From a bacterium (lineage in GTDB: Bacteria; Hydrothermota; UBA3073; JACQXS01; JAGMCI01), in the NCBI GenBank assembly GCA_030018315.1, contig JASEGA010000003.1, positions 7,246-71,245 on the forward strand: 64,000 nucleotides of DNA, written 5' to 3'. This document shows, piece after piece, positions 1,931 to 49,371 of the stretch. Position 1 is the first letter of the stretch; the number at the start of each line of letters is the position of its first letter. The notes below the pieces were generated by a model, which ran no database searches, was not told the DNA's origin, and was given only the letters and a program-made list of their open reading frames with translations. Made by a program: the position numbers and the translations under genes.

Positions 1931-1958
1931 GTAGGGGTTTGATTAATCAGACCCATAC
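1931..1958. repeat. Palindromic element A (GTAGGGGTTTGATTAATCAGACCCATAC), intergenic, diverged right arm
   Basis: Matches the 28-bp palindrome found at 8942, 28983, 34791, 49253 and 8743. Confidence 0.8.
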
Positions 1959-2056
1959 AAAATTAAAATTTTTGTTTGTAGGAATAGAGTTACGAAATTT
2001 TCTAAACTTACTGACACAAGATTTGCTGTAATATTTGATAAAGGAGGTGAATAGAG

Positions 2057-2266
2057 ATGGCTGTAGAGAAGGCAATAGCGTCTTCGAGCTTAGTCGAGGT
2101 TGTCGACAGAATCCTGGATAAGGGTATAGTCATCGATGCCTGGGTCAGGATTTCATTAGTAGGTATCGAGCTACTTGCCATTGAAGCCAGGGTAGTAATA
2201 GCTTCTGTTGAGACCTGGCTAAAGTATGCTGAAGCAGTAGGTCTATTACCAGCAGAGGCAGCATAA
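2057..2266 (+). CDS. gvpA: Gas vesicle structural protein GvpA
   Basis: [63 protein letters not shown] is near-identical to canonical GvpA. Strong SD AGGAGGTG 7 nt upstream. Confidence 0.92.
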
Positions 2267-2279
2267 GAGGTATCACCTC
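2267..2279 (+). terminator. Short hairpin GAGGTATCACCTC directly after the gvpA stop
   Basis: 5-bp stem with a 3-nt loop and no U-tract. The stem resembles element E (GAGGTGCGACCTC). Confidence 0.25.
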
Positions 2280-2532
2280 AAGCTCGAGACAAGCGGAATT
2301 TGGCAACCTCTCTACTGACAGGTAGAGATGCCCTTTGAGTGTACAAAAGTGCTTGTGCCCTTTTGTAGACCCAAGTGTGGTAAGAGCTTAAAGTGCATCT
2401 TCTGCCAAATATATAATATAAGCTAAAGCAAATGAGAAAGATACTAAAAAGTTCCTCCGATGAATCGGAGGTAGGGGTTGGTCATCCGACCCGTATGGCC
2501 GAGGAAGGTATCCCTGCCATAAGGAGGTAAAA

Positions 2533-2928
2533 ATGGATAGGAGGGCGGATGATATAAGGAATCTTGCTTCAGAGATGGCGGCTTCATATGAGGAGCGAAA
2601 GAAGGGGGTTGCCGATCTTATACAGGGGTTTAGGGCTGATAATGAAGCAGCGGCTAAGGAGTGGAGGAATCTGAGAACTCTCATGGCAAGAACGAAAGCA
2701 GGTAAGGTTGTAGGGGTGAAGCCAAAGGTAGCGAAGCCACCTGTCCCGGAAGCTGTCGGGATAGAAGATAGGATTTTGGATGTAGTTAAAAATAGACCCG
2801 GAATAACACTCAAAGAGATAGGCGATGCTTTAGGATTACACTTTGTAAGGATAGCAGCTGATACTAAGTCACTTGTTGAATCAGGCAAGCTTAGGAAGGA
2901 AGGCAAGTTATACTATTTGAGGAAGTAA
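2533..2928 (+). CDS. Hypothetical protein with a C-terminal winged-helix-like segment (possible gvp-associated regulator)
   Basis: SD AAGGAGGT upstream. The C-terminus ILDVVKNRPGITLKEIGDALGL...GKLYYL looks like a wHTH. No confident family assignment. Confidence 0.4.
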   Translation: MDRRADDIRNLASEMAASYEERKKGVADLIQGFRADNEAAAKEWRNLRTLMARTKAGKVVGVKPKVAKPPVPEAVGIEDRILDVVKNRPGITLKEIGDALGLHFVRIAADTKSLVESGKLRKEGKLYYLRK

Positions 2929-2938
2929 AAAGATAATG

Positions 2939-2982
2939 GGGAGACAAAGATAAATTGGTCCGCTTTTATCTTTGTTTCCCCT
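2939..2982 (+). terminator. Long stem-loop (17-bp stem) after ORF 2533-2928
   Basis: GGGGAGACAAAGATAAA-ttggtccgct-TTTATCTTTGTTTCCCC followed by TATTT. Confidence 0.5.
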
Positions 2983-3081
2983 ATTTAGGCTAGGAGGAGT
3001 GTGTCCAAAAACTTAAAAATCACCGCCAGGAGGGTGTTTTCAGATAGTCGGCTAGTTAGATAGGTGGGGAGATAATTATTT

Positions 3082-3279
3082 ATGGCTCAAGACATACGCA
3101 GTGTAGTTGATGATATAATTACAACTTATGAACTAAGGATAAAGGAGATAGGTGATAAATTAAAAGAAAAGGGAACTCAACTTATTGACTACTTTAGAAA
3201 CGAGCGTACTAATCTAACTCATGAGTTAGAATCTATATTAGCAAAAAAAATCATTTACGTAAAAAAGACTTTAGATTAA
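3082..3279 (+). CDS. Hypothetical small coiled-coil protein
   Basis: ORF with TAATG stop/start coupling to the next ORF. No recognisable family. Confidence 0.35.
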   Translation: MAQDIRSVVDDIITTYELRIKEIGDKLKEKGTQLIDYFRNERTNLTHELESILAKKIIYVKKTLD

Positions 3280-4361: not shown

Positions 4362-4374
4362 CAGAGATTTTTTC

Positions 4375-4449
4375 TGGCGGCACCGGGATTTGAACCCGGG
4401 TCTTATGGCTGAGAACCATATGTCCTAGACCGGACTAGACGATGCCGCC
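4375..4449 (-). tRNA. tRNA-Glu (anticodon CUC)
   Basis: The reverse complement folds as a cloverleaf. Acceptor GGCGGCA/TGCCGCC. Anticodon stem TATGG/CCATA with loop TTCTCAG. T-arm CCGGG-TTCAAAT-CCCGG. No encoded CCA. Confidence 0.8.
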
Positions 4450-5847: not shown

Positions 5848-5886
5848 TAGATTATTCGCTTAGCTCAGAATGACAGTGTATGTATT

Positions 5887-7720: not shown

Positions 7721-8521
7721 TCATTTTAATTTGAGTGCAGGTGTGTTTAAAACAATTTCTTTTAGATTTTGTGCAAAGTTAGTCTTTGAAAGTTTACCTA
7801 CATTTCCTATTGAGGCTTCAAGTCCTTCATCAAAATCTATCTCACCAAGTAGAGGGATATTGAATTTTTTTATTTGTAGGGATAATTCATGAATTGTCCT
7901 TACAGGCTTCATGTTCTCAATAACCCCAATAATCTCGACCTGTCTTGCCTCTTTAAGCATTTTTATCACCTTTTTGACAGTCTCCATCGTCACTTTAGAC
8001 GGTGTAGCTATTATAATGAATTCAGCTCTTTTTATCAACCGAATTACATCTAATGTTGCATCCCCAATACCCGGTGGCATATCAATAATTAGAAAATCTA
8101 ATAAACCCCACCGTGTGATACTTAGCAATTCTATCATTGCATTTGAAATATCAATGCCTCTCAGTGGCGAAGGCTTATCAGCAGCATAATAAATGATAGA
8201 TATAAACTTAATGCCATAAATTTCAGGTGGTATAACTCCTTTATCTTCTTTTGGATAAATTCCTCTTATTCCTAATATTATATCAATAGATGGACTACAA
8301 AAATCCAAATCCAGTAGCCCAACTTTGTATCCTAATTCTGTCAAAGTCAATGCTAAAGTAGATGCAATTAAACTCTTACCAATACCACCTTTACCACCTG
8401 AGACAGCAATTAACCTCTTTATATTTCGTAATCTTTCATCAATTATATTTAAGCGCGGATCCATAATCATTATTGTATGGACACGGCACGCCGTGTCCAT
8501 ACAACTATTTTGTTCCTTCAA
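7721..8521 (-). CDS. Mrp/NBP35 (ApbC) family P-loop ATPase
   Basis: GKGGIGKS deviant Walker A. MinD/ParA-like fold. Confidence 0.8.
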   Translation of the reverse strand: MKEQNSCMDTACRVHTIMIMDPRLNIIDERLRNIKRLIAVSGGKGGIGKSLIASTLALTLTELGYKVGLLDLDFCSPSIDIILGIRGIYPKEDKGVIPPEIYGIKFISIIYYAADKPSPLRGIDISNAMIELLSITRWGLLDFLIIDMPPGIGDATLDVIRLIKRAEFIIIATPSKVTMETVKKVIKMLKEARQVEIIGVIENMKPVRTIHELSLQIKKFNIPLLGEIDFDEGLEASIGNVGKLSKTNFAQNLKEIVLNTPALKLK

Positions 8522-8930
8522 TAGACTCTATAAAGATACCTCGTCCTTTTATAAATTCAAAGTCAGGACTACCACATTTAGGGCACTTAATATAGGCATG
8601 TGCGACTTCGGGGACAAAATGTATTGATTCGGATTCTTCATCATTTAATTCCATATCACCAAAAGCCCAATTATGTTCACAGACTCTACATTTTAAAATA
8701 GCTTTTTCTGTTCCGATCTCTATTTTTGCTTTTCTAAGTGGAGTAGGAGTTTGATTAATCAAACCTCTACATTGGACAATTTCCTTTAGAGCAAATCTAA
8801 ATATCTCCGTATCTATTTGCTGTAATTCGCCCATCTTAATTTTAATCTTATCAATCCTTTTAAGTTTTTCTTTTTCTGCTACCCCAAGTGCAGTAGAAAC
8901 AACTGCCTCTGCTAATGCCCATTCATGCAT
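8505..8930 (-). CDS. hypA: Hydrogenase nickel-incorporation protein HypA carrying an in-frame palindromic-element insertion
   Basis: MHEWALAEAV... start and the CPKCGS zinc motif. Element A variant at 8743-8770 encodes CRGLINQTPTPL in a loop. Confidence 0.8.
   Translation of the reverse strand: MHEWALAEAVVSTALGVAEKEKLKRIDKIKIKMGELQQIDTEIFRFALKEIVQCRGLINQTPTPLRKAKIEIGTEKAILKCRVCEHNWAFGDMELNDEESESIHFVPEVAHAYIKCPKCGSPDFEFIKGRGIFIESIEGTK
8743..8770. repeat. Palindromic element A variant (GTAGGAGTTTGATTAATCAAACCTCTAC) inside hypA
   Basis: In-frame and encodes RGLINQTPT. Confidence 0.8.
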
Positions 8931-8941: not shown

Positions 8942-8969
8942 GTAGGGGTTTGATTAATCAAACCCCTAC
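8942..8969. repeat. Palindromic element A, perfect 28-bp palindrome GTAGGGGTTTGATTAATCAAACCCCTAC, intergenic
   Basis: Perfect reverse-complement symmetry. Confidence 0.85.
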
Positions 8970-17857: not shown

Positions 17858-17891
17858 AACTCAACCGCAAATGCACGCAGATAGACGCAAA

Positions 17892-17925
17892 TTTGTAATC
17901 TGTAATTTGTAATCTGTAATCTATG
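17892..17925. repeat. Tandem heptamer microsatellite (TGTAATC)n, intergenic
   Basis: TTTGTAATCTGTAATTTGTAATCTGTAATC. The same heptamer array appears inside the hdrA-like CDS at 62294-62326. Confidence 0.7.
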
Positions 17926-28389: not shown

Positions 28390-28403
28390 TGTCTCTCTCC
28401 ACT

Positions 28404-28430
28404 CTCATTCTGAGCGAAGCGAAGAATCTC
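28404..28430. repeat. Element CTCATTCTGAGCGAAGCGAAGAATCTC (the GTCATTCTGAGCGAAGCGAAGAATC family)
   Basis: Same family at 41604-41631, 41643-41668, 41682-41700 (reverse), 49451-49474 and 49506-49533 (reverse). Confidence 0.65.
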
Positions 28431-28771
28431 AATTGATGTAAACTGAGTTCTTTATTCACTGTATTCCAATACAAGCAAGACAAATTGTAATTGCATTATT
28501 TAAAACCTCACTAATCTCCTGCCTGAAAATACCAATGATAAACACTGCAAAGAATAAAAGTAGTAAAAAGAAAGAAAATCTCCTTAAGACATGTCTTATT
28601 CTCATACTCATCTCTTAATTACATATTAAAATGCAAAATTATAAACCACAAGATTAACACAAGATTAATTCTTTCTCTCTTGTAAAAATCTGTGCAATCT
28701 GTGGTTTCTATTTGAATTTTGATTTGTCATTTTTATTTTTGATTTTTGATATTTGATATTAATTCCTACAT

Positions 28772-29500
28772 TTACCTAATTACAATTATTTTCTTTGTTA
28801 TACTGTTATCACCAGCTATAAGCTTACAGAAATATACACCGGACTCAACCTCATTCCCGGCTAAATCTGTACCATCCCAGGAAACAGCAGTGATTAGTGA
28901 TAAGTGGTTATCCGAAGGATCCTGTGGAGTGATAAGTGAGAAAGACTTAACTAATCTGCCAGTTAGGTCATAAATTTGTAGTGTAGGGGTTTGATTAATC
29001 AAACCCCTACCTAATCCCTGAGCCCTAATAACAGTTTTCTTCCTGAATGGATTAGGATAGACTTCTAATACCTCGTCATCCGGTATTCGGATTTCGGATT
29101 TTATCGTCTCTTCTACTCCCTGAGCATCAACCTTTATTAGATAAACATCAAACCCTCCTGCACCATATGAATGAGTCGCTCCAGCTATAATGTAGCCACT
29201 ATCTTTCGTCTGTGCTACTGAGTTGCCATAGTCATCATCGGTTCCACTGTATGTCTTTGTCCAGATTGTGTCACCAGTTGAATTTACCTTTATTAGATAA
29301 ACATTACCAAATCCTGCACCGAATGAGTAAGTATATCCAGTTATAATATAGCCACCATCCAATGTTTGTGCTACTGAATAGCCACGGTCAGAATCAGGCC
29401 CACCATATGTCTTTTCCCAGCCCGCTACTGCTATCTTGGATAAAAGTGGCAACCAAATTATAGCCACCACTGTCATAGCCTTAGCCATTAGTTTATACAT
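28772..29500 (-). CDS. Secreted beta-propeller repeat protein with T9SS C-terminal domain, interrupted in-frame by palindrome A
   Basis: Signal peptide. GYIIAGATHSYGAG repeats. CTD ...SWDGTDLAGNEVESGVYFCKL. Element A at 28983-29010 encodes GRGLINQTPT. Confidence 0.7.
   Translation of the reverse strand: MYKLMAKAMTVVAIIWLPLLSKIAVAGWEKTYGGPDSDRGYSVAQTLDGGYIITGYTYSFGAGFGNVYLIKVNSTGDTIWTKTYSGTDDDYGNSVAQTKDSGYIIAGATHSYGAGGFDVYLIKVDAQGVEETIKSEIRIPDDEVLEVYPNPFRKKTVIRAQGLGRGLINQTPTLQIYDLTGRLVKSFSLITPQDPSDNHLSLITAVSWDGTDLAGNEVESGVYFCKLIAGDNSITKKIIVIR
28983..29010. repeat. Palindromic element A (perfect) inside a CDS
   Basis: GTAGGGGTTTGATTAATCAAACCCCTAC. Confidence 0.85.
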
Positions 29501-29643: not shown

Positions 29644-30102
29644 TTAGGATTTTTCATATACTTTCAAAATCTCTGTAATAACAGGTTTAAACTTTGTATT
29701 CTTAGCTATCTTGGTATTAAGTGGTTTCAAGCACAGTAAATAAGCTATTAAAAACACAAATCCACCTATTACACCAAAAGTTTCAGTCCCTATTATTCCC
29801 TTTACTACTCCAAACCCTATCCCAAAAGCAACTAATGGAAGGATAAAAAGTAAGAATGCAGAAAGCAAGGTGCTTTTAGGACTCGTCTCTATTCTCACTA
29901 ACTCATTAACCTTTATAAGTAGGGACACGCCATGGCGTGTCCCTACAACTGCCTCAACTACCATCTTATTTCCGTGAGGATTACAAAACATCCGCGCCGT
30001 ACACTTCTCACAAAAACCCTTAGGCTCAATCTCTACCTTAGCTAATTTTTCGCCAGAGGTGCAACCTCCTGATATCTCTATAACTCTACCTACTTCTTCC
30101 AT
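29644..30102 (-). CDS. RseC/MucC-family membrane protein with in-frame element C and element E
   Basis: N-terminal Cys-containing soluble domain and two TM helices. Element C at 29919-29946 encodes GTRHGVSL. Element E lies at 30055-30069. Confidence 0.45.
   Translation of the reverse strand: MEEVGRVIEISGGCTSGEKLAKVEIEPKGFCEKCTARMFCNPHGNKMVVEAVVGTRHGVSLLIKVNELVRIETSPKSTLLSAFLLFILPLVAFGIGFGVVKGIIGTETFGVIGGFVFLIAYLLCLKPLNTKIAKNTKFKPVITEILKVYEKS
29919..29946. repeat. Palindromic element C (perfect 28-bp palindrome GTAGGGACACGCCATGGCGTGTCCCTAC)
   Basis: Copies also at 37570-37595 and 54583-54610, all inside CDSs. Confidence 0.85.
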
Positions 30103-32366: not shown

Positions 32367-33331
32367 TAAATGAATCCTTTCTCTCTCATCCACTCATCAT
32401 TGAAAATCTTACTGAGATATCTGCTTCCACTATCCGTAAAAATAGTGATAACGACCTTATCACGAGGCAACCCCTTCGCTACTTTAAGTGTAGCACATGC
32501 CGCTGCTCCTGAAGCGCCTCCGACAAAGATTCCTTCCTCTCGTAATAACCTTCTTGCCATAAGAAATGCATCCTTATCAGAAACTTGAATTACATCGTCA
32601 ATTAGCTCAAATTTTAAAGTCCCAGGTAGTAGATGTTCACCAATCCCTTCCATCAGATAAACTTTAGGTTCTATAAATTTTCTATGCTTAGCCCAGTCAT
32701 AATATATTGAGCCTACCGGGTCTACACCTATCACTTTAATCTTTGGGTTCTTCTCTTTTAAAAATTTACTTACTCCCGAAATTGTGCCACCAGAGCCCAT
32801 ACCAATAACTACATAGTCGACTTTCCCTTCAGTCTGTTCCCAAATCTCTGGCCCTGTGGTTCTGTAGTGGGATTCAATATTTTTCTGGTTGTAGAACTCA
32901 TCTACTAAAAAAGCATTCCTCTCCTTAGCAATCCGCTTAGCAACTTCAAAATATGAATTAGGTGAATCCGGAGGAGTATCGAGTGGGCAAGCTATTACCT
33001 CTGCTCCAAGTGCTTTAAGTAAACCAATTTTTTCCTTACGTGTTTCATCAGGTATTGTAAAGATTGTCTTGTATCCTTTAACAGCTGCATATATGCCTAT
33101 ACTAATTCCTGCATTACCTGATGTGCTCTCAACAATAGTATCCCCTTGCTTCAAAAAAACCAACTTCTCAGCATCTTTAAGTATATAAAATGCCATCCTA
33201 TCTTTTACTGAGCCACCAGGGTTGAAGAATTCAAGCTTCGCTAAGATAGTAGCTTCTATACCACGAGTCACTCGATTCAATTTTACAAGTGGAGTATTAC
33301 CTACAGTCTCTAAAATATTATCATACCACAT
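32367..33331 (-). CDS. Cysteine synthase / CBS-like PLP enzyme (paralog 2, tandem duplicate)
   Basis: Roughly 60% identical to the downstream paralog by eye. Same motif set. Confidence 0.85.
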
Positions 33332-34780: not shown

Positions 34781-35773
34781 TTAGACTAATGTAGGGGTTT
34801 GATTAATCAAACCCACAATGAATGGGACTGAGCAACAAGTCTTTTGATATTGTATTTCTAATTCATACTCCTTTGCTTTTCTTATTGCTGCTTCTGACAC
34901 TAATGCGATTCTATTAAATCCATGCTCCACAGCTAATACATCAATCTTAGGGTTATTCCTTGGACGCGCACAGCCCAAAGCTATAGGAGTATTGGGCATT
35001 TTTATTCTAAGCGTTGCCATAATTTTAGCTATAGAGTTAAGGCTTGGTAACGCTATATTTTCCATAGGAGTTCCTAAAAGTGGCATCAACACAACTACAA
35101 CTACACAGGCTACCTTATATTTACTAACTATATTAATAGCTCTGTATTCACCTTTAATTTTGCCATAATGTAAACCAATTATGATATGAGGCACAATAGG
35201 AAGCCCAGCATTTTGTAATGCATCCAATGACTCTATTATCTTGTTTATGCCAAAATCCACATGATAGACCTTTTGCAATGTCTCATCGTCCCCTATTACA
35301 TCAATAAGGGCTTGGTCTACACCTGCATCTTTTAGTTGCACTGCTATCCCAGTGTCTATTATTCCACTATGTATTGAGATAAGTAGACTCGTTTTTTCTT
35401 TTATTTCTTTTATAGCAGGGATAAAATTAGCCCAAGGTAAACTGCCATCTTTTTGGCTTCCACCAGTAATCAGACACCCTATGTTACCATTTCTTTCTAA
35501 CTCTATGCATTTTCTTATTAGTTCAGCTGGTGTAGTCGCAAATATCATTGACTTAAGCATCTTTGAATTACAGTGGTCACAGGTAAGCTCACATTTATCA
35601 CCAGTTATTGATATAGCAGGATATTTACCCCATTCACTATCACATCTGAACATACCAGGGTGATAGAAAGTTATATTCTTGCCAAAGTTATGCCAAGATA
35701 GTTCTCTTGCTTTATTAAGCAAATCCGTTATTTCTACCTCGCCGTCGGGTAGGCGGATTTCGTCATTCGTCAT
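34781..35773 (-). CDS. Radical SAM protein, biotin-synthase-related (second LipS-type candidate) with C-terminal element A fusion
   Basis: CELTCDHC motif. Start taken at MTNDEIRL. The C-terminus ...FIVGLINQTPTLV* is supplied by element A at 34791-34815. Confidence 0.6.
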   Translation of the reverse strand: MTNDEIRLPDGEVEITDLLNKARELSWHNFGKNITFYHPGMFRCDSEWGKYPAISITGDKCELTCDHCNSKMLKSMIFATTPAELIRKCIELERNGNIGCLITGGSQKDGSLPWANFIPAIKEIKEKTSLLISIHSGIIDTGIAVQLKDAGVDQALIDVIGDDETLQKVYHVDFGINKIIESLDALQNAGLPIVPHIIIGLHYGKIKGEYRAINIVSKYKVACVVVVVLMPLLGTPMENIALPSLNSIAKIMATLRIKMPNTPIALGCARPRNNPKIDVLAVEHGFNRIALVSEAAIRKAKEYELEIQYQKTCCSVPFIVGLINQTPTLV

Positions 35774-36977
35774 TATAATACTCTTTAAATGCAACCCAGC
35801 ATTTCCTGACCACACTCCAAAAGTCATTGCGAGTCCCGACAAAGGGTGGGACGAAGCAATCTTCCATAAACTTCCTTTTTACACATGCACGTGTAAGTTC
35901 AGCACCGAATATTTTACGCCATTCGTGTTCATATTCTGATAGTATATCAAGATTACCTTCTCTTATTGACTTGGCAGCTACTCGACCTGCAATTTTGCCA
36001 CATATAACAGCTTGAGGTATTCCACCACCAGTTATAGGATGAGTCTGACCTGCAGCATCACCTACTAAAATTGTATTCTCCTTATATGTCCTCTTCAAAG
36101 GACCACCTACTGGAATTAATCCACCTGTAACTGAAAGTTGGCTACCCTTAAGTTTACCACCGCTCTTTAACTTATCAACAAAATATTCCAATAACTCACT
36201 CAATCTCTCTTGATTGCTAAGTTCAAGGCTAAAACCTTGAGTTACATCTTTTAAATTTGGAATTTGGAATTTGTAATTTGTATTTTGTTTTATTCCTATT
36301 CCTACATTTGCAATCTTACCTTTTGGAAACAGCCATCCATAACCACCAACAAATTTATGGTCAAAGTAGACTTCAGTCCAATCCATCACAGTTGTGAGTG
36401 GCATTTCATATTGCAAAGCAGTAACAAAAGTTGTATTAGTTTCACCTACCCAACTCCCAACTGTAGATTGTGGCCCATCAGCTCCAATTATCACTTTTGC
36501 ATAGAGTTCTAAGTTTTTACCGTTTTTCTTACCTGTCGGCAGACAAGTATTTACAATTATTCCATTCTTTGTTTTAGAAATACACAATGTATTAAGTAAT
36601 ACATCTACTCCAATATTTTGTGCCCTTTGTACTAATTCTTTATCAAAAATAGCTCTATTTAATATATACCCGGGGGATTGTGTCTCAAAACATTTTCCCA
36701 AAATGTCATTGCGAGTCACGACCTTTGTCGGGACGAAGCAATCGCCATCCACTATGTAAGTTTTCATTGAATTTATTTCCTGTGCAATACTATCAGCTGT
36801 AAATTTTACCTCTTGTGATAGTAATTTAGGTACAAACTCAGCACACTGGACAGGCTCACCTACAACCTTCCTCTTTTCAAGCAATAATACTTTTGTACCT
36901 AATTTAGATGCTTCATACGCAGCAGATGCTCCTGCAGGACCAGCACCTACAACCACTATATCATATCGTTTCGTCAT
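35763..36977 (-). CDS. FAD-dependent oxidoreductase, geranylgeranyl reductase family, with three in-frame repeat insertions
   Basis: VVVGAGPAGASAA Rossmann motif. V-family elements at 36705-36743 (GDCFVPTKVVTRND) and 35823-35861 (EDCFVPPFVGTRND). A hexamer repeat at 36256-36290. Confidence 0.8.
   Translation of the reverse strand: MTKRYDIVVVGAGPAGASAAYEASKLGTKVLLLEKRKVVGEPVQCAEFVPKLLSQEVKFTADSIAQEINSMKTYIVDGDCFVPTKVVTRNDILGKCFETQSPGYILNRAIFDKELVQRAQNIGVDVLLNTLCISKTKNGIIVNTCLPTGKKNGKNLELYAKVIIGADGPQSTVGSWVGETNTTFVTALQYEMPLTTVMDWTEVYFDHKFVGGYGWLFPKGKIANVGIGIKQNTNYKFQIPNLKDVTQGFSLELSNQERLSELLEYFVDKLKSGGKLKGSQLSVTGGLIPVGGPLKRTYKENTILVGDAAGQTHPITGGGIPQAVICGKIAGRVAAKSIREGNLDILSEYEHEWRKIFGAELTRACVKRKFMEDCFVPPFVGTRNDFWSVVRKCWVAFKEYYNDE
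35823..35861. repeat. V-family element GTCATTGCGAG-[hairpin]-CGAAGCAATC
   Basis: Copies at 35823-35861, 36705-36743, 38615-38656, 56234-56269 (reverse) and 61483-61508 (reverse). Confidence 0.75.
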
Positions 36978-36994: not shown

Positions 36995-38605
36995 TTATTG
37001 AATTGCATCCATAACCTCTTTTAACAACCCAATGTTTAGCTCAGTTTGACTCTCAAACCTGCCTTTATATGCTTCTTCAACCTTACCTAATTCGTAACAA
37101 GTAGTGTTATCTATATCAATCAATATTCCACCTAACCCTATATCCTCAAGTTCTTCTCTATGCTTTGCATAAAATGGCTCACAACAGCACCCAATATAAG
37201 AGGTGATACCGTCTCTTTTATACCTTTTAAGGGTTGACATTAGATGCTCAAAACTTACTATTGTTGTGACCATCATAGACCGCTCTCTCCCAATCCTATA
37301 TGCCTCACCAACACTACATTTGCCACACTCAGTGCAGAAATCTTTATATCTAAACTTGCAAACTTTCAGTTTTGCACAATATGGAAGAAGTAGGGGCAAT
37401 TCATGAATTGCCCCTACATGCTGAAGAATAATTTTAGAGAATGTCCCATTAACAGTGAATACTCTATTCCCCAATGGAAGCGGGATACCAAATTTTACGA
37501 GTTCAATTTTTTCCAATGCCTCATTAATTGCGGAGATAAAATCAGACGGCTTGATTCCAGGTATCTTGGGTAGGGACACGCCATGGCGTGTCCCTTTGAA
37601 AAATTGATTGATTTTATTTTGGACAGTTATTTTATCTGCCCTTATATCTTTGAGAATAGCTTCCAAGTCAAATATTGCCCTCTTTGGATACGCAAAGAAA
37701 TCGCCTGTTATGAGTGCACTCTCTATCTGATTACGCTTCGTATTAACTACAAGTGAAGTCCTAATCAATCCACCTTCTGCTTTATAAACTGAATGTGCAA
37801 CTTGGCGAGTATACGCTGGCTCTTTAACTTTATTAATCCATTTATTTGACTTAAATTTATTTAGTTTTTGGTAAAACAGCAACTCTTCATCTTTTGTCAA
37901 CCCACCCTTAATCAATTCAATCCCAAATTCTTTTTCAAACCCCTGTTTTAGTATTTGTTTTATAGGGGACTGTCCCCGAATGGAGACTGTCCCCGAATGG
38001 GGACACCCAAGTTCCCATTTTAGACAAGTAACTCGTTCTTTAACAGAGTCAATCTCTTTATCTTTGAGCTTTTCTATAGGAATACGAAGTGCTCTAAGCA
38101 TTGTATTAACATCAAAGTCTACAAGGAGCGTACCTTGAAATAAAAATGCCTCTCCTTCTTCTGTGCCACCTGTGCCAGAAATCTTTCTACCATTGACTTC
38201 AATATCATTTCTAGGCCGAAATTTTGCATTTATCCCTAATCTCTTGAGCGCATAAATAACAGGTTGACATAAATCCTTAAAGAAAGATTCGTTTACAATA
38301 CTGGTTTTAAAAAATGACTTCTCACAGATAATCTCCCAGCCAAGCTGTGACTCATCAAAATAAATTGCACCACCACCTGTAATTCTTCTGTTCACATCTA
38401 TACCATTTTTATTGCAGAAGTCAAGTCTAACCTCTTGTTCTACGGTCTGATGATAACCAACTAATACTGCAGGTGGATAAAATTGTAAGAACCTAACAGT
38501 ATTTGGAGAAAGCTTTTTACTTTTAGTCTCAAGCAATGTCTCATCCATTGCCATATTTTCAGCCGCTGTCCTCACCCCTGTATCAAGTAACCGCCACTTA
38601 CTCAT
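36995..38605 (-). CDS. Lipoate-protein ligase A-like protein with Cys-rich C-terminal extension, carrying elements C and D in-frame
   Basis: The N-terminus matches LplA (RRITGGGAIYFDESQLGWEII...). Extra C-terminal CxxC pairs. Element C at 37570-37595 (KGTRHGVSL). Element D triple copy at 37965-38006. Confidence 0.7.
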   Translation of the reverse strand: MSKWRLLDTGVRTAAENMAMDETLLETKSKKLSPNTVRFLQFYPPAVLVGYHQTVEQEVRLDFCNKNGIDVNRRITGGGAIYFDESQLGWEIICEKSFFKTSIVNESFFKDLCQPVIYALKRLGINAKFRPRNDIEVNGRKISGTGGTEEGEAFLFQGTLLVDFDVNTMLRALRIPIEKLKDKEIDSVKERVTCLKWELGCPHSGTVSIRGQSPIKQILKQGFEKEFGIELIKGGLTKDEELLFYQKLNKFKSNKWINKVKEPAYTRQVAHSVYKAEGGLIRTSLVVNTKRNQIESALITGDFFAYPKRAIFDLEAILKDIRADKITVQNKINQFFKGTRHGVSLPKIPGIKPSDFISAINEALEKIELVKFGIPLPLGNRVFTVNGTFSKIILQHVGAIHELPLLLPYCAKLKVCKFRYKDFCTECGKCSVGEAYRIGRERSMMVTTIVSFEHLMSTLKRYKRDGITSYIGCCCEPFYAKHREELEDIGLGGILIDIDNTTCYELGKVEEAYKGRFESQTELNIGLLKEVMDAIQ

Positions 38606-41553: not shown

Positions 41554-41642
41554 ATGACTCCTATCTCAAATGTTAAGTTTTATGTGTTTTGTTGTTCTCC
41601 TCCTGAATGAAGTGAAGAATCGCATTCTGAGTTTTCCTTCTT

Positions 41643-41668
41643 GTCATTCTGAGCGAAGCGAAGAATCT
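41643..41668. repeat. GTCATTCTGAGCGAAGCGAAGAATCT element, one of 3 copies in this intergenic region
   Basis: Forward copies at 41604-41631 and 41643-41668. Reverse copy at 41682-41700. Confidence 0.65.
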
Positions 41669-41713
41669 ACTTTTGGAGGGGCTTCACTATGCTCAGCATG
41701 ATATTTTGAGGTA

Positions 41714-46614: not shown

Positions 46615-46632
46615 CGTGGAAAAGCGAGTGTT

Positions 46633-46692
46633 TTATTCTTGCTTGTCTTTTTTGTTGGGCTTAAAGAAGTCGCAATCCCTGCAAGTAGCCAT
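46633..46692 (-). CDS. Possible 19-aa Cys-containing leader peptide (MATCRDCDFFKPNKKDKQE) upstream of nadA
   Basis: Near-consensus SD GGAGGTG 7 nt before the ATG. Stop lies 18 nt before the nadA start. Confidence 0.3.
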   Translation of the reverse strand: MATCRDCDFFKPNKKDKQE

Positions 46693-46861
46693 AATTAATC
46701 ACCTCCTTTCCTTAGCTCCAGATTGCACAGATTTTTAACCACGAATATACACGAATACACACTAAATTCATAAGACTATTCTTTCCTTTATTTATGTCCA
46801 TTCGTGGTTTCATCATTTATCCGTGAAATCTGTGGCTTCATTTCTAAACATATCCTTTATA

Positions 46862-47338
46862 TTATGAGAAAAAAGTCTTAGCTAAAAGCCCTGCTATTGG
46901 TGGCAAAATGAATGTAGATGCCACCCTTATTAGCACAAATTTAGGTCCTAATATACTTATTTCAAGTGGCAGCCTACTAACAGTCCCCATTCCCCATGCT
47001 GCTATAAGGGTGACAAGACAGGACGCACTCGCCCCTATCTTATAAAAAGAAGCAAGTATCGGGAATAGTGCATAAGGACTTAGAGGAATAAGAAAGCCAA
47101 TCAACCACCCAATCATAATCCCCTTAAAGCCAGCTTCTTTACCTAACCATTTAGCAATAATATCTTTAGGAATCAAAACCTGCACCATTCCTGCAACGGC
47201 AAATGAAGCAATGAGAAGTGGTAAAACACCAAGAAAAGTTTTACCACTAAATTTAAGTCCCTCAATATATACGCCACGAGAATAAGCAAATACTGTTAGA
47301 ACTACAGCTATCCCAAACATTATAATAGTTGTAAGCAT
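46862..47338 (-). CDS. Predicted permease (polytopic membrane protein)
   Basis: Five hydrophobic segments. No soluble domain. Confidence 0.45.
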   Translation of the reverse strand: MLTTIIMFGIAVVLTVFAYSRGVYIEGLKFSGKTFLGVLPLLIASFAVAGMVQVLIPKDIIAKWLGKEAGFKGIMIGWLIGFLIPLSPYALFPILASFYKIGASASCLVTLIAAWGMGTVSRLPLEISILGPKFVLIRVASTFILPPIAGLLAKTFFS

Positions 47339-47382
47339 TTTCCCCTATTAGCGAGGCTGAAGCCTCACGCTACATATTTATC

Positions 47383-47613
47383 TTATGATTTCAATTCTTT
47401 TACGAACTTTCTCGTCTTATCACCTTCGCTGGTGATAAGGGCTTTTGTTTCTTCTCTTGTCTCCTTTATAAGTTCACTTATCTTCTCTATAAGTTCCCTC
47501 GTTTTCTTACCTTCTTCCAATATAGCTCTACCATTTTGTATAAGGAATTTGGTGAACACAATTGAAAGAAAAGCACCAAATATTACAAATATTATCGGGA
47601 TAGCTAAATTCAT
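47383..47613 (-). CDS. Small single-TM coiled-coil protein
   Basis: N-terminal TM helix then a Glu/Lys-rich helix. Confidence 0.3.
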   Translation of the reverse strand: MNLAIPIIFVIFGAFLSIVFTKFLIQNGRAILEEGKKTRELIEKISELIKETREETKALITSEGDKTRKFVKELKS

Positions 47614-47729
47614 CGCCCATCCCTTTTATAATTTAGATACATCTTATCACCTCCAGATGTACTATGCCTTCATTATATCTCCTTTATTTCTTTGATGTTC
47701 ATCCTACCTCAATGTTTACCCAGCTCATA

Positions 47730-48899
47730 TTATGGCCTGGGTTTACCAAAAGGTGATATTTCTCTAAGCCTATTAACAACACCAGGAAATACATCAATCA
47801 CTCGCTCTATATCCGCATCTGTATTATCTCTGCCAAGACTGAATCTTAAAGATGAGTGTGCAACTTGAGGTGGTATTCCCATAGATAGTAGGACATGGGA
47901 AGGCTCAAGTGACCCAGAAGTACAGGCAGACCCTGAAGATGCAGATATACCTTCATAATCCAAATTCAATAACATAGATTCACCCTCCACATATTTTACA
48001 CAAATTGATAGCGTCCCACTAAGCCTATTTTCTGGATGTCCTGTTAGAATAACATCCGGTATCTTATTCATTATACCATTATACAACTTATCCCTTAATC
48101 TTTTAAGCCTCGTATCTTCTTCGCTCATTTCACTCCCTGCTATTTCACACGCTTTACCTAGCCCTACAATGCCTGGAACATTTTCAGTACCAGCCCTACG
48201 ATTGAATTCATGATGACCACCATGGATGAGTGGGTCAACCTTTGTCCCTCTTTTAATATAAAGTGCACCTACTCCTTTGGGACCGTAAAATTTGTGTCCT
48301 GATAAAGAAAGTAAATCTACACCAAGCTTGTTAACATCTATAGGAATCTTACCCGCTGTCTGCACTGCATCTGTATGGAAATATATACCACGCTCTTTTG
48401 CAAACTTTGCAATCTCCTGGATTGGCTCAATTGTGCCGACTTCGTTGTTAGCATGCATAATAGTGATTAAAATTGTTTTATTAGTAATTGCAGCCTTGAG
48501 TTCGTCCAAATCAACAACCCCATATTTATCTACACCAACATAACTTACATTAAATCCCTGCCGCTCAAGCCACCTGCATGGGTTAATTACTGCATGATGC
48601 TCAATCTTTGATGTAATTATATGATTGCCCTTATCCTTATTTGCATAAGCAATTCCTTTAATTGCAAAATTATTTGCTTCAGTCCCACTTGCTGTGAACA
48701 CAATTTCCTTTGAATCCGCACATAAAAGTTTAGCTACTTTATCTCTTGCATCTTCAATGGCTTCACGCGCCTCACTTCCAAATTTATATATGCTTGATGG
48801 ATTACTGTATAACTCATTAAAATATGGACGCATCGCATCAATCACTCTTGGGTCAGTAGGTGTAGTAGCATTATGGTCAAGATAGATAAACTTAGCCAT
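47730..48899 (-). CDS. iscS: Cysteine desulfurase (IscS/NifS)
   Basis: SGHKFYGPKG PLP lysine motif and SSGSACTS active-site Cys loop. Confidence 0.9.
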   Translation of the reverse strand: MAKFIYLDHNATTPTDPRVIDAMRPYFNELYSNPSSIYKFGSEAREAIEDARDKVAKLLCADSKEIVFTASGTEANNFAIKGIAYANKDKGNHIITSKIEHHAVINPCRWLERQGFNVSYVGVDKYGVVDLDELKAAITNKTILITIMHANNEVGTIEPIQEIAKFAKERGIYFHTDAVQTAGKIPIDVNKLGVDLLSLSGHKFYGPKGVGALYIKRGTKVDPLIHGGHHEFNRRAGTENVPGIVGLGKACEIAGSEMSEEDTRLKRLRDKLYNGIMNKIPDVILTGHPENRLSGTLSICVKYVEGESMLLNLDYEGISASSGSACTSGSLEPSHVLLSMGIPPQVAHSSLRFSLGRDNTDADIERVIDVFPGVVNRLREISPFGKPRP

Positions 48900-49371
48900 C
48901 CTTCCCCCTCTGTTTGTATTCGTCCAAAATATCTTGCAAGCTCATATCATTAAGAATCTTGCTAAATTCCTTACTTAACCTATTCCATACAACTCTTGCT
49001 ACACAGTTATTTATTCTATCACACTCTCCGGTTGAGGTTTCACCTCTTGGCACACAGTTTGAAAGCTTAATAGGACCCTCAAGTGCATATAAAATATCGC
49101 CTACCTTTATTTTCTTAAGTGGCTTTTTAAGTTTATACCCACCACCAGGTCCTCGCACAGATTCAACCAATCCCGCTATATTAAGGTCGTGAAAAATTCT
49201 CTCCAAGTAAGCCATAGGAATACACTGTTTTTCAGATACACTCTTAACCGAAGTAGGGGCTTGATTAATCAAACCCCTACCTTGCCCATTTTTAGCTTGC
49301 CTCGCCAAGTCAAGGCGGGCAAGCTCAATCATTGCCCGTAGCCCATATCTACCTTTACTTGAAATCCTCAT
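48892..49371 (-). CDS. Rrf2-family regulator (IscR-like) with in-frame palindrome A insertion
   Basis: MRISSKGRYGLRAM... Rrf2 N-terminus and CVPRGETSTGECDRINNC ligand cysteines. Element A at 49253-49280 encodes GRGLINQAPTS just upstream of the HTH. Confidence 0.8.
   Translation of the reverse strand: MRISSKGRYGLRAMIELARLDLARQAKNGQGRGLINQAPTSVKSVSEKQCIPMAYLERIFHDLNIAGLVESVRGPGGGYKLKKPLKKIKVGDILYALEGPIKLSNCVPRGETSTGECDRINNCVARVVWNRLSKEFSKILNDMSLQDILDEYKQRGKDG
49253..49280. repeat. Palindromic element A variant (GTAGGGGCTTGATTAATCAAACCCCTAC) inside the iscR-like gene
   Basis: In-frame insertion. Confidence 0.8.

What the first reader, a model, noticed from the sequence alone, without database searches (positions are those of the whole stretch)
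1931..49280. Dispersed 28-bp perfect palindrome (element A) inserted in-frame into conserved genes and encoding RGLINQTPT in either orientation
GTAGGGGTTTGATTAATCAAACCCCTAC or a close variant occurs six times, at 1931, 8743, 8942, 28983, 34791 and 49253. Two copies are intergenic. Three sit in-frame inside hypA, a T9SS beta-propeller protein and the Rrf2/IscR-like regulator. One supplies the C-terminus and stop of a radical SAM gene. Each intragenic copy is read in the same codon phase (AGG GGT TTG ATT AAT CAA ACC CCT) and adds a GLINQTPT loop. Because the element is a perfect palindrome, the peptide is the same for either insertion orientation. This recalls Rickettsia palindromic elements. 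I am not aware of it being described for this kind of genome.
Basis: seen in the sequence. Interest (0 to 1): 0.85.

Follow-up and report, generated by a model that had tools for sequence, protein, structure and literature searches.

The report
Double-foot GTAG REP palindromes inside genes
The 28-bp palindrome is real and is read in-frame inside several genes, but it is a member of a known class of tiny bacterial repeats (REP elements with a GTAG "foot" at both ends) tied to a known family of REP-associated tyrosine transposases, so it is a new member of a described kind rather than a new phenomenon.

Summary
Observation confirmed: six copies at the stated coordinates, none expected by chance. 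Four are read in one phase as RGLINQTPT inside HypA, a T9SS-tail protein, a radical SAM C-terminus and an Rrf2 regulator. The shared phase is a survivorship filter, because the other two frames contain TAG or TGA. The radical SAM stop lies 7 nt beyond the element, not in it.

Identity: a "double-foot" GTAG REP (5' GTAG, GGG/CCC stem base, 3' CTAC), the type Quentin et al. 2018 describe for TnpA_REP subclass 2.4 (RAYT Group 4). That description includes in-frame REP copies inside the transposase gene. Di Nocera et al. 2013 already reported REPs inside unrelated genes.

Evidence here:
- The exact core occurs in more than 120 loci, carrying about 49 lineage labels from many phyla.
- 19 of 120 loci carry a subclass-2.4-like Y1 transposase, usually with the element inside it just after the HUH motif.
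- A prediction made for a sister palindrome of the window was confirmed in an independent collection.

No transposase lies in this window. The insertion chemistry is unresolved: 28 is not a multiple of 3, and net gains are +8, +14, +5 and +5 residues.

What I did not find in the papers consulted: near-identity of this 28-mer across phyla, its intragenic majority in this window, repeated hits in T9SS tail loops, and a transposase helix that co-varies with REP type.

The parts
1931..1958 (.). Element A copy, 2 mismatches, intergenic
   Evidence: No ORF of 60 aa or more spans it. The DNA hairpin is weakened to -5.3 kcal/mol.
8743..8770 (.). Element A copy, 2 mismatches, in-frame inside hypA (residues 54-63, CRGLINQTPTP)
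   Evidence: +8 residues relative to most of 19 orthologs. In the AF2 model it is the lowest-pLDDT block, between helix 40-54 and strand 68-74. Both substitutions are synonymous in the reading frame (read).
8942..8969 (.). Element A copy, perfect, in the spacer between the upstream gene (ends 8989) and hypA, 11 nt upstream of the hypA ATG
   Evidence: Hairpin -11.5 kcal/mol, z = -7.5.
28983..29010 (.). Element A copy, perfect, in-frame inside the T9SS C-terminal sorting domain of a 242-aa secreted protein (residues 164-173)
   Evidence: Por_Secre_tail spans residues 147-240. The same loop is hit in paralogous tail domains of another MAG.
34791..34818 (.). Element A copy with one degenerate foot (3 mismatches), encoding the last residues (VGLINQTPT) of a radical SAM/BATS protein; the stop codon is 7 nt further on
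49253..49280 (.). Element A copy, 1 mismatch, in-frame inside an Rrf2/IscR-like regulator (residues 31-40, GRGLINQAPT)
   Evidence: The insertion is absent from 11 orthologs and from solved IscR/CymR structures. In the AF2 model it lies in the helix1-helix2 loop, pLDDT about 72.
8505..8930 (-). Host gene hypA (141 aa)
   Evidence: PF01155, 80.5 bits. Best solved relative is Thermococcus HypA 3A43, E = 1.7e-32.
28772..29500 (-). Host gene: secreted protein with a T9SS C-terminal sorting domain
   Evidence: PF18962, 36.7 bits.
34781..35842 (-). Host gene: radical SAM protein with BATS domain
   Evidence: PF04055, and PF06968 below its cut-off (21.9 bits against 22.2).
48892..49371 (-). Host gene: Rrf2 family regulator
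   Evidence: PF02082, 115.9 bits. Identical protein in an NCBI MAG '[bacterium]'; the nearest ortholog is candidate division WOR-3 at 57%.
29919..29946 (.). Sister double-foot 28-mer, family B (GTAGGGACACGCCATGGCGTGTCCCTAC), perfect, in-frame in an RseC/MucC protein (VGTRHGVSL)
37570..37597 (.). Family B copy with one degenerate foot, in-frame in the LplA-DUF116 protein (KGTRHGVSLP)
   Evidence: +5 residues relative to 15 orthologs.
54583..54610 (.). Family B copy, perfect, at the 5' edge of a TPR protein ORF (possibly upstream of the true start)
8475..8502 (.). Family B-like variant (GTATGGACACGGCACGCCGTGTCCATAC) between hypA and the Mrp/HypB-type ATPase gene
37390..37417 (.). Sister double-foot 28-mer, family C (GTAGGGGCAATTCATGAATTGCCCCTAC), perfect, in-frame in the LplA-DUF116 protein (VGAIHELPL)
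   Evidence: +5 residues relative to 15 orthologs. The same peptide sits in the post-HUH loop of the L120 transposase.
7876..7903 (.). Family C-like degenerate copy, in-frame in the Mrp/HypB-type ATPase (VRTIHELSLQ)

Best explanation
Element A is a 'double-foot' GTAG REP. It is a 28-nt single-strand hairpin with the tetranucleotide GTAG at its 5' foot, GGG/CCC at the stem base, and the reverse complement CTAC at its 3' foot.

It is the cognate repeat of one subfamily of REP-associated tyrosine (Y1/HUH) transposases: TnpA_REP subclass 2.4, equal to RAYT Group 4.

Shown here:
- The 28-mer has sharp, conserved ends and no target duplication.
- It occurs nearly unchanged in many phyla.
- A copy sits in-frame inside the transposase gene, in the variable loop just after the HUH motif.
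- Next to that copy lies a helix (alpha-C) whose sequence co-varies with the REP type.

Inferred:
- The transposase recognises the folded hairpin and its GTAG foot on single-stranded DNA and cuts and rejoins there. This has been shown in vitro for E. coli, Stenotrophomonas and Marinomonas TnpA_REP, which belong to other subclasses.
- That activity spreads copies around the genome.
- Because the gene carries its own hairpin, horizontal transfer of the gene seeds the same REP in unrelated genomes.
- Copies that land in genes persist only if they fall in the single stop-free frame and in a tolerant loop or terminus. This yields the recurring RGLINQTPT peptide. The peptide is a by-product, not a selected motif.

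The window holds three such families (A, B, C), most copies inside ORFs, and no transposase gene.
For: 1. Anatomy. Among 126 copies fetched with only the inner 20-mer, the unsearched outer bases are G112/T105/A114/G110 ... C105/T111/A105/C109 of 126. Composition turns near-random immediately outside, so the unit is exactly 28 nt with GTAG/CTAC feet. It folds as a 12-bp DNA hairpin at -11.5 kcal/mol, z = -7.5.

2. Transposase association.
- 19 of 120 element-A loci carry one particular Y1 family.
- Tested members pass Pfam Y1_Tnp PF01797, and their best NCBIfam match is the REP-associated tyrosine transposase.
- They show the subclass-2.4 motifs NH[IFV]H, WQ and YIxNNP.
- In about 14 loci the element lies inside the gene right after HUH; in 4 more it lies within 650 nt of it.

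3. Family-wide pattern. In 120 homologs the post-HUH loop is filled with palindrome-coded peptides of about 10 types; type A occurs in 56 alone and in 2 more together with another type. One member has no insert.

4. Prediction test. The window's family-B core was scanned in an independent collection. 27 of 120 loci hold this transposase family. In 19 of its ORFs (18 loci) B lies inside the ORF; where the ORF shows the HUH motif it follows it directly. These members have their own alpha-C sequence.

5. Co-variation. The 32 aa before the WQ motif are 52.8% identical within a REP type and 29.1% between types. The N-terminal values are 47.3 and 47.2, the C-terminal values 51.8 and 53.5.

6. Literature.
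- PMC6006769 describes double-foot REPs, the 3 G-C pairs at the stem base, and in-frame REP insertions in subclass 2.4 genes between HuH and Y.
- PMC3733652 describes intragenic GTAG REPs.
- PMC8266576 covers in vitro cleavage and strand transfer, and co-evolution of TnpA_REP with its REP.

7. Survivorship. The other two frames contain TAG or TGA (sequence). In other genomes only 33 of 117 copies lie in long ORFs, about 14 of them in the transposase gene.
Against: - No RAYT gene lies in the 64-kb window, so the cognate enzyme is not shown for this genome.
- No subclass-2.4 enzyme has been tested biochemically, as far as the papers read here show.
- 28 nt is 1 mod 3, so a plain 28-nt insertion would shift the frame. 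Net length gains relative to orthologs are inconsistent: +8 in HypA, +14 in Rrf2, +5 and +5 in LplA-DUF116. The insertion event itself is therefore not reconstructed.
- The NCBIfam RAYT model is matched below its cut-off (59-61 bits against 80).
- REP type does not track the N- or C-terminal parts of the transposase for the large A group. Loop and helix could therefore be exchanged by recombination rather than inherited strictly with the gene.
Confidence: 0.85

Rival explanations
1. It is a miniature inverted-repeat element moved by a DDE transposase that duplicates TA (Tc1/IS630-like). The mobile part would be the inner 22-24 nt, inserted into GTAC, which would give G-TA-[22 nt]-TA-C and a net gain of 24 nt (8 codons).
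For: - The ends read G TA ... TA C (sequence).
- HypA gains exactly 8 residues relative to most orthologs.
- Removing 24 nt from the HypA, Rrf2 and T9SS-tail copies reconstructs TGTACT, GGTACT and GGTACA, and Gly/Cys-Thr dipeptides that resemble the orthologs' 'GT' at that place.
Against: - No association with any DDE transposase was seen, whereas the link to a Y1/HUH gene family is strong and was reproduced for a second palindrome family.
- LplA-DUF116 gains +5 residues twice and Rrf2 gains +14.
- The same 24-nt arithmetic also fits HUH cleavage at T^A in both feet, so it does not discriminate between the models.
- There is no duplication outside the 28-mer.
Confidence: 0.05
2. It is an independent RPE-like family: a selfish palindrome specialised for in-frame insertion into genes, unrelated to REP/RAYT systems.
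For: In-frame peptides sit in several conserved proteins, in loops, as for Rickettsia RPEs.
Against: - In other genomes most copies are extragenic: 84 of 117 are not in long ORFs.
- The feet are GTAG/CTAC, whereas the short R. conorii RPEs are CGTC-tagged according to PMC3733652.
- Copies sit inside or next to a RAYT-like gene in 19 of 120 loci.
Confidence: 0.04
3. The palindrome is a host-selected functional site: a protein-binding operator, an RNA hairpin that controls mRNA stability or translation, or a selected peptide motif. In this view it is kept by selection rather than spread by transposition.
For: - The copy at 8942 lies 11 nt upstream of the hypA start, where a hairpin could affect translation.
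- REPs in enterobacteria are known to influence mRNA decay and termination (background in PMC3733652).
- Both substitutions in the HypA copy are synonymous.
Against: - The same 28-mer sits at non-homologous places in unrelated genes and spacers, in loci carrying about 49 lineage labels with G+C from 30 to 58%.
- DNA-level identity exceeds what a 9-residue peptide would need.
- Intergenic copies encode nothing.
- There is no Rfam match.
- Individual copies may still have been co-opted.
Confidence: 0.04
4. It is an assembly or binning artefact, or CRISPR repeat debris.
For: All records are metagenome-assembled genomes.
Against: - Copies are embedded in otherwise unique coding sequence that aligns to orthologs on both sides.
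- An independent Logan assembly of SRR23186779 reproduces 4480 nt around the Rrf2 copy at 100% identity.
- Hits include a closed chromosome (CP070742.1) and megabase-scale contigs.
- Spacings of 199 to 20,270 nt are not array-like.
Confidence: 0.01

Closest known systems
'Double foot' REP sequences of TnpA_REP subclass 2.4 / RAYT Group 4 (Quentin et al. 2018, PMC6006769; Bertels et al. 2017, PMC5581495)
   Same: - 5' GT[AG]G and 3' C[TC]AC feet, and three G-C pairs at the stem base.
[quoted passage not shown]
- The host enzyme carries NH[IFV]H / WQ / YIxNNP motifs.
- The distribution across phyla is patchy.
   Different: - This particular 28-mer and its peptide were not found in the searchable literature.
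- It is nearly invariant across loci carrying about 49 lineage labels, many from candidate phyla that the papers read here do not list.
- In this window most copies are intragenic.
- No transposase gene lies in the window.
GTAG-tagged REPs in general, including intragenic ones (Di Nocera et al. 2013, PMC3733652)
   Same: A small palindromic repeat with a terminal GTAG. It is found as single units. Some copies lie wholly within ORFs of known proteins, and their termini sometimes provide stop codons.
   Different: In the passages I read, that paper describes the GTAG tag at one end only; here both ends carry it and the palindrome is perfect. There intragenic copies are a minority, with Opitutus terrae the richest; here 4 of 6 A copies, and 8-10 of 12 double-foot copies overall, lie in ORFs.
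E. coli / Stenotrophomonas / Marinomonas REPtrons (TnpA_REP with cognate REP; Corneloup et al. 2021, PMC8266576; Messing et al. 2012, PMC3479197)
   Same: A Y1/HUH enzyme is paired with a hairpin preceded by GTAG. Enzyme and REP co-evolve. Perfect-palindrome REPs exist as a second group.
   Different: Those are subclasses 2.2 and 2.5. Their REPs are extragenic and flank the gene. Biochemistry exists for them and not for subclass 2.4. The hairpin inside the coding sequence, and the co-varying alpha-C segment next to it, are specific to the family seen here.
Rickettsia palindromic elements (RPEs)
   Same: Palindromic repeats that persist in-frame inside functional genes and add surface peptide segments (analogy; background in PMC3733652).
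   Different: From my own knowledge, RPE-1 and its relatives are about 100-150 bp. The short RPE-4 and RPE-6 are CGTC-tagged. No dedicated transposase is known for them. They are restricted to Rickettsia. The element here is 28 bp, GTAG-tagged and RAYT-linked.
IS200/IS605 insertion sequences
   Same: They use the same enzyme superfamily (PF01797) and the same logic: a sub-terminal hairpin with a 5' tetranucleotide 'guide' that selects the cleavage site on single-stranded DNA.
   Different: Here the repeat is 28 nt and carries no gene, and the hairpin lies inside the transposase ORF rather than at the ends of an element. No IS-like boundaries were looked for.

Membership tests
Double-foot GTAG REP (TnpA_REP subclass 2.4 type) | 5' GT[AG]G tetranucleotide at the foot of the hairpin | tested here: met
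   Outer bases not included in the search pattern: G112/T105/A114/G110 of 126 copies. Five of six window copies carry GTAG on both strands.
Double-foot GTAG REP (TnpA_REP subclass 2.4 type) | Reverse complement C[TC]AC at the 3' end (second foot) | tested here: met
   C105/T111/A105/C109 of 126. 58 of 126 copies are the perfect 28-mer.
Double-foot GTAG REP (TnpA_REP subclass 2.4 type) | Bottom of the stem made of three consecutive G-C pairs; stable hairpin of 20-40 nt | tested here: met
   GGGG/CCCC follows the feet. The DNA hairpin has 12 pairs, -11.5 kcal/mol, and 0 of 200 shuffles fold as well.
Double-foot GTAG REP (TnpA_REP subclass 2.4 type) | Dispersed multi-copy family within a genome | tested here: met
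   Six copies in 64 kb against 0 expected. Several copies per 8-kb locus in Zixibacteria MAGs.
Double-foot GTAG REP (TnpA_REP subclass 2.4 type) | Physical association with a RAYT/TnpA_REP gene (flanking it or inside it) | tested here: met
   Across genomes, 19 of 120 loci carry the gene, with about 14 copies inside it and 4 within 650 nt. Reproduced for family B in 27 of 120 loci. For the window's own genome this is not testable: there is no such gene in the 64 kb.
Double-foot GTAG REP (TnpA_REP subclass 2.4 type) | Predominantly extragenic location (the 'E' of REP) | tested here: inconclusive
   In other genomes 84 of 117 copies are outside long ORFs. In this window only 2 of 6 A copies, and 2-4 of 12 double-foot copies, are extragenic.
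Double-foot GTAG REP (TnpA_REP subclass 2.4 type) | Binding and cleavage by the cognate Y1 transposase on single-stranded DNA | not testable with these tools
   Shown only for other subclasses in vitro (PMC8266576).
TnpA_REP subclass 2.4 / RAYT Group 4 (applies to the transposase ORFs that carry the element in other genomes) | Y1_Tnp fold with HuH motif NH[IFV]H, conserved WQ, and Y motif YIxNNP | tested here: met
   PF01797 at 23.7-28.7 bits against a cut-off of 23. The sequences show MPNHIHGI, WQRNYYEH and YI(A/M/Q)NNP. Motif definitions come from PMC6006769.
TnpA_REP subclass 2.4 / RAYT Group 4 (applies to the transposase ORFs that carry the element in other genomes) | Highly variable insertion between beta3 (HuH) and alpha-C that contains REP sequences in frame | tested here: met
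   One member without an insert (P0064) marks the base state.
TnpA_REP subclass 2.4 / RAYT Group 4 (applies to the transposase ORFs that carry the element in other genomes) | Match to NCBIfam NF047646 (REP-associated tyrosine transposase) above its cut-off | tested here: not met
   58.8 and 61.2 bits against a cut-off of 80. It is the only and best NCBIfam hit. The model may not represent this subclass well, but that was not checked.
Rickettsia palindromic elements (RPE) | CGTC tag (short RPE-4/6) or about 100-150 bp length (RPE-1 type); restricted to Rickettsia | tested here: not met
   The element is 28 bp, GTAG-tagged and present in many phyla. The CGTC assignment comes from PMC3733652. The RPE-1 length is from my own knowledge.
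Rickettsia palindromic elements (RPE) | In-frame persistence inside functional ORFs, in surface-exposed segments | tested here: met
MITE (DDE-mobilised miniature inverted-repeat element) | Target-site duplication flanking the element | tested here: not met
   Direct repeats of 1-4 nt flanking 96 copies occur at the shuffled expectation: n=2 observed 3 against 5.5 expected; n=3 observed 2 against 1.8. A TA duplication hidden inside the feet cannot be excluded.
CRISPR repeat | Regularly spaced array of direct repeats | tested here: not met
   Spacings are 6812, 199, 20041, 5808 and 14462 nt.

The most novel reading that the evidence does not exclude
The copy inside the transposase gene is the master copy. 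Each double-foot REP family is then a self-contained unit in which the cis-acting hairpin is embedded in the coding sequence of its own Y1 transposase, directly next to a specificity helix (alpha-C) that co-varies with it.

The gene would carry its own substrate across phylum boundaries. It would seed a new genome with 28-nt hairpins that then write short peptides (RGLINQTPT, VGTRHGVSL, VGAIHELPL) into host proteins wherever the single open frame and a tolerant loop allow. A 24-nt core (AGG...CCT, exactly eight codons) moved between T^A cuts in the two feet would make every insertion frame-preserving.

None of the papers I read proposes any part of this. Only the co-location, the co-variation and the cross-phylum identity are shown here.
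Probability: 0.25. Interest if true: 0.6.

Novelty: new member of a known kind. Interest (0 to 1): 0.35.

Why it matters
The finding itself is largely explained: a known REP type in a poorly studied lineage. It has three practical consequences.

1. Annotation. Peptides such as RGLINQTPT, VGTRHGVSL and VGAIHELPL in MAG proteins are REP footprints. They are not motifs or shared domains, and they can cause spurious word-based protein matches.

2. A model system. One 28-mer that is almost invariant in loci from many phyla, always linked to one transposase subfamily, gives a clean and sequence-simple pair for the still-missing biochemistry of subclass 2.4. The alpha-C segment is a specific, testable candidate for the REP-recognition determinant.

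3. Protein tolerance. Repeated survival of the same 8-10-residue insert in HypA, Rrf2, RseC, LplA-DUF116 and T9SS tail domains is a natural insertion-tolerance scan of those folds.

Tried and rejected
- **Transposase in the window.** phmmer and tblastn with three RAYT-like queries hit only the 9-residue peptide itself.
- **Target-site duplication or palindrome extension outside the 28-mer.** Both are at the shuffled expectation.
- **Fixed net insertion length.** I hoped for +8 codons everywhere, which would fit a 24-nt unit at GTAC. HypA fits (+8), but Rrf2 is +14 and both LplA-DUF116 sites are +5 against 15 orthologs of invariant length. This is left unresolved. Partial half-palindrome duplications in transposase loops (P0009, P0029, P0061, L126, L205) suggest later remodelling by hairpin slippage.
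- **Compensatory change in the HypA copy.** On checking the pairing register, the two substitutions are not a compensated pair: positions 6 and 24 do not pair with each other. The hairpin is simply weakened to -4 kcal/mol.
- **Co-variation of REP type with the whole transposase.** This was not seen for the N- or C-terminal parts, only for the alpha-C segment. The sample is biased, being the top 120 hits to an A-type query.
- **Near-identical empty alleles.** The window's proteins are singleton clusters. The only other contig carrying the Rrf2 gene is 100% identical.
- **Rfam at gathering thresholds.** It reports only a tRNA.
- **Literature search for the exact 28-mer and for GLINQTPT.** No paper was found.
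- **Relatedness of the window to the fetched loci.** blastn found none closely related.

Full report
**1. Observation**

No match occurred in 100 dinucleotide-preserving shuffles.

The four intragenic copies lie in minus-strand ORFs. All sit at offset 1 mod 3 of their ORF, so all are read as AGG GGT TTG ATT AAT CAA ACC CCT, which translates to RGLINQTP(T).

Pfam confirms the hosts: HypA, a protein with a T9SS C-terminal sorting domain, a radical SAM/BATS protein, and an Rrf2 regulator.

Two details need correcting.
- The radical SAM stop codon lies 7 nt beyond the element, so the element supplies the C-terminal residues but not the stop.
- The constant phase has a trivial cause. In the other two frames the element reads G-TAG and GTA-GGG-GTT-TGA. 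Only one frame is open on either strand, and any copy seen inside an intact gene must be in that frame.

**2. The inserts are real additions in loops**

- *Rrf2.* The window's protein has 14 extra residues between helix 1 and the helix-turn-helix. They are absent from solved IscR/CymR structures and from 11 orthologs. In the AlphaFold model (mean pLDDT 84.6) they form the helix1-helix2 loop, with block pLDDT about 72.
- *HypA.* It has 8 extra residues relative to most of 19 orthologs, and 6 relative to the rest. They also appear as a gap in the alignment to Thermococcus HypA 3A43. In the model (mean pLDDT 93.2) they form the lowest-confidence excursion, between helix 40-54 and strand 68-74.
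- *Not an artefact.* An independent Logan assembly reproduces 4480 nt around the Rrf2 copy at 100% identity.

**3. The element is one of three sister families in the window**

A generic scan for palindromes with GTAG/CTAC ends finds twelve 28-mers:
- six of type A;
- four of type B (GTAGGGACACGCCATGGCGTGTCCCTAC and variants, at 8475, 29919, 37570 and 54583);
- two of type C (GTAGGGGCAATTCATGAATTGCCCCTAC and a variant, at 37390 and 7876).

Types B and C are read in frame 0 as VGTRHGVSL and VGAIHELPL. They sit in an RseC/MucC protein, twice in an LplA-DUF116 protein, in the Mrp/HypB-type ATPase, and at the 5' edge of a TPR protein ORF. Eight to ten of the twelve copies are therefore inside ORFs.

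**4. Distribution elsewhere**

The records carry about 49 lineage labels, some of them nested names for the same group. They include Zixibacteria, Aminicenantes, Sumerlaeota, Ignavibacteria, Bacteroidota, Dadabacteria, Melainabacteria/Sericytochromatia, Nitrospirota, Chloroflexota, Planctomycetota, Armatimonadota, Latescibacterota and CPR Roizmanbacteria. Locus G+C ranges from 0.30 to 0.58.

The eight outer bases were not part of the search pattern, yet they are GTAG...CTAC in 83-90% of 126 copies. Composition becomes near-random immediately outside, with only a modest excess of T before and A after. The unit is therefore a sharply bounded 28-mer. No flanking direct repeat exceeds expectation.

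**5. The transposase link**

A phmmer probe, followed by queries taken from the loci themselves, showed that 19 of the 120 loci carry one particular Y1/HUH protein family.
- Tested members pass Pfam Y1_Tnp.
- Their only NCBIfam hit is the REP-associated tyrosine transposase, below its cut-off.
- In about 14 loci element A lies inside this gene at one fixed place, directly after the HUH motif (...MPNHxHGIIxI..[RGLINQTPT]..W.LMKNP..LGKIIRxFKA...WQRNYYEHIIRNE...YIxNNP).
- In four more it lies within 650 nt of the gene.

A database search with one such protein returned at least 7989 relatives. In the best 120, the stretch between HUH and the next helix is hypervariable.
- It is filled with palindrome-coded peptides of about ten types, including RGLINQTPT, RGVQLNAPT, VGAIHESPL, VGAQFIAP/GAINRAPT, RGGSRTAPT and VGAKNFSPL.
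- Copies often occur in tandem or partly duplicated.
- One member has no insert.

**6. This is a described system**

Quentin et al. 2018 (PMC6006769) define TnpA_REP subclass 2.4, equal to Bertels' RAYT Group 4.
- Its motifs are NH[IFV]H, WQ and YIxNNP.
- Its REPs have three G-C pairs at the stem base.
- It includes a 'double foot' type with 5' GT[AG]G and 3' C[TC]AC.
- Its 'remarkable and unique feature' is REPs inserted in-frame within the tnpA_REP gene between HuH and Y.

The authors note the patchy, horizontal-transfer-like taxonomic distribution. They cite Di Nocera et al. 2013 (PMC3733652) for REPs inside unrelated genes. Bertels et al. 2017 report Group 4 in 17 bacterial classes.

Every sequence feature tested here matches that description. 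Neither the exact 28-mer nor GLINQTPT appears in the searchable literature.

**7. A prediction and its test**

If each double-foot family has its own transposase subfamily carrying it internally, then the window's family B should show the same pattern. Up to that point I had seen no transposase carrying B.

Scanning an independent collection (JGI metagenomes) for the B core returned 120 loci.
- 71 of 129 copies are the perfect 28-mer.
- 27 loci contain the same transposase family.
- In 19 of its ORFs (18 loci) B lies inside the ORF; where the ORF shows the HUH motif, B follows it directly (MPNHIHGILILDYSLVGTRHGVSLQ...). It is followed by a B-specific helix, NSVSVVINQYKSSVKRWCN.

The prediction held.

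**8. Co-variation**

Across 109 transposases with a single assignable REP type, the 32 residues preceding the WQ motif (the alpha-C region) behave differently from the rest of the protein:

| Segment | Identity within a REP type | Identity between types |
|---|---|---|
| 32 aa before WQ (alpha-C) | 52.8% | 29.1% |
| N-terminal segment | 47.3% | 47.2% |
| C-terminal segment | 51.8% | 53.5% |

The sample is biased, being the top hits to an A-type query. Even so, the contrast between segments is internal to the same sequences. It agrees with the published conclusion that TnpA_REP enzymes co-evolve with their REPs, and it points to alpha-C as a candidate specificity element. That last step is inference.

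**9. Mechanism**

Shown here:
- the hairpin anatomy;
- the link to the enzyme family;
- the internal copy;
- the cross-phylum identity;
- the single open frame;
- the location of the inserts in loops.

Taken from the literature: TnpA_REP of other subclasses binds folded single-stranded REPs. It cleaves next to them at a site selected by the GTAG 'guide' and performs strand transfer in vitro.

Inferred:
- A subclass-2.4 enzyme spreads the 28-mer in the same way.
- Transfer of the gene carries the REP into new genomes.
- Selection removes copies in the two stop-containing phases and in intolerant positions.

In other genomes 84 of 117 A copies are outside long ORFs, and 33 are inside, about 14 of those in the transposase gene itself. 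The element is therefore ordinarily extragenic, and this window is unusually rich in intragenic survivors.

**10. What remains unexplained**

28 is not a multiple of three, so a plain 28-nt insertion cannot preserve a frame.
- HypA's +8 residues would fit a 24-nt unit (AGG...CCT, eight codons) placed into GT^AC. The reconstructed empty sites read TGTACT (HypA), GGTACT (Rrf2) and GGTACA (T9SS-tail protein).
- Against this, Rrf2 is +14. Both LplA-DUF116 sites are +5 against 15 orthologs that show no length variation there.
- Partial duplications of half-palindromes in transposase loops show that these hairpins are remodelled after insertion. That may blur the original increment.
- No near-identical empty allele could be obtained, because the window's proteins are singleton clusters.

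**11. Other recurrent pattern**

The loop between the first two strands of the T9SS C-terminal sorting domain carries element A in the window's protein. It also carries A in four paralogous tail domains of one unrelated MAG (L061, L096, L113, L090). Paralogs there that lack A carry other short peptides at the same place.

**12. Verdict**

The interpretation as a mobile palindrome that writes a peptide into proteins is right in spirit. However, the element belongs to a known kind: the double-foot GTAG REP of RAYT subclass 2.4.

The phase argument and the orientation argument carry no extra information.

What I did not find in the papers consulted is modest:
- a new, very widely shared REP family;
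- its intragenic majority in a WOR-3-like MAG;
- the alpha-C co-variation.

Novelty: new member of a known kind. Interest: 0.35.

Noticed in passing
window 7876-7903, 8475-8502, 29919-29946, 37390-37417, 37570-37597, 54583-54610: Two further families of 28-bp GTAG...CTAC palindromes. Family B is GTAGGGACACGCCATGGCGTGTCCCTAC and family C is GTAGGGGCAATTCATGAATTGCCCCTAC. Most copies are read in-frame, as VGTRHGVSL and VGAIHELPL, inside RseC, LplA-DUF116 (twice), the Mrp/HypB ATPase and the edge of a TPR ORF.
   Followed up: yes
window 5848-5885, 28401-28434, 41598-41622, 41642-41669, 49452-49476, 49505-49542, 50927-50964: A different dispersed repeat (core TGTCATTCTGAGCGAAGCGAAGAATCT), present in both orientations. 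By coordinates from the ORF list, all copies appear to lie in spacers between ORFs. It has no GTAG foot and may be another REP-like family.
   Followed up: no
window 35819-35861 and 36701-36743: Two copies (81% identical) of a 43-nt repeat, GTCATTGCGAGTCCCGAC...GGGACGAAGCAATC, with internal complementarity. Both lie within the region of ORF 35763-36977.
   Followed up: no
window 27521-27552 and 37964-38012: Tandem copies of a short palindrome, AGGGGACTGTCCCC. The second site lies inside the LplA-DUF116 ORF (peptide ...GTVSIRGQSP...), so that gene may carry a third kind of palindromic insert. This may account for the rest of its 16-17 extra residues.
   Followed up: no
window 49295-49324: An imperfect 30-nt hairpin (GCTTGCCTCGCCAAGTCAAGGCGGGCAAGC) lies 14 nt from the Rrf2 copy of element A. 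It encodes ELARLDLARQA. About 6 of the 14 extra Rrf2 residues come from this stretch rather than from element A.
   Followed up: partly
window 7721-8930: HypA and the adjacent Mrp/MinD-type ATPase have as their best solved relatives the Thermococcus kodakarensis HypA (3A43, E = 1.7e-32) and ATPase-type HypB (3VX3, E = 1.2e-73), which form a complex (5AUN). This is an archaeal-type Ni-insertion pair in a bacterial MAG.
   Followed up: partly
window 28983-29010; L061 1487, L096 5981, L113 2727, L090 about 5700: Element A occupies the same loop, between the first two strands of the T9SS C-terminal sorting domain, in the window's protein and in four paralogous tails of MAG CAYWOR01. Paralogs without A carry other short peptides there (VGAGFTPA, GSESAKPLS).
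   Followed up: partly
proteins P0001-P0120 and loci L122-L241: In the RAYT-like family, the 32 residues before the WQ motif (alpha-C) are type-specific for each REP family: 52.8% identity within a type against 29.1% between types. The N- and C-terminal parts show no such difference. Half-palindromes are often tandemly duplicated in the loop (for example NQTPT in P0009, P0029 and P0061; SHGMSLQS three times in L126).
   Followed up: partly
window 36995-38605: The LplA-DUF116 fusion protein (536 aa) has more than 4600 database relatives. The closest, from bacteria and from Thermoplasmata/Euryarchaeota MAGs, are almost all 518-520 aa long.
   Followed up: no
window 31383-33331: Two adjacent paralogous genes (336 and 321 aa) share about 73-74% DNA identity over about 580 nt. 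A third related segment lies near 39250.
   Followed up: no
window 17883-17924, 36254-36295, 62300-62341: Short heptamer-like runs (AATTTGTAATCTGT...) recur at three places.
   Followed up: no
window 4375-4449: A single tRNA gene on the minus strand is the only Rfam match in the window at gathering thresholds.
   Followed up: no
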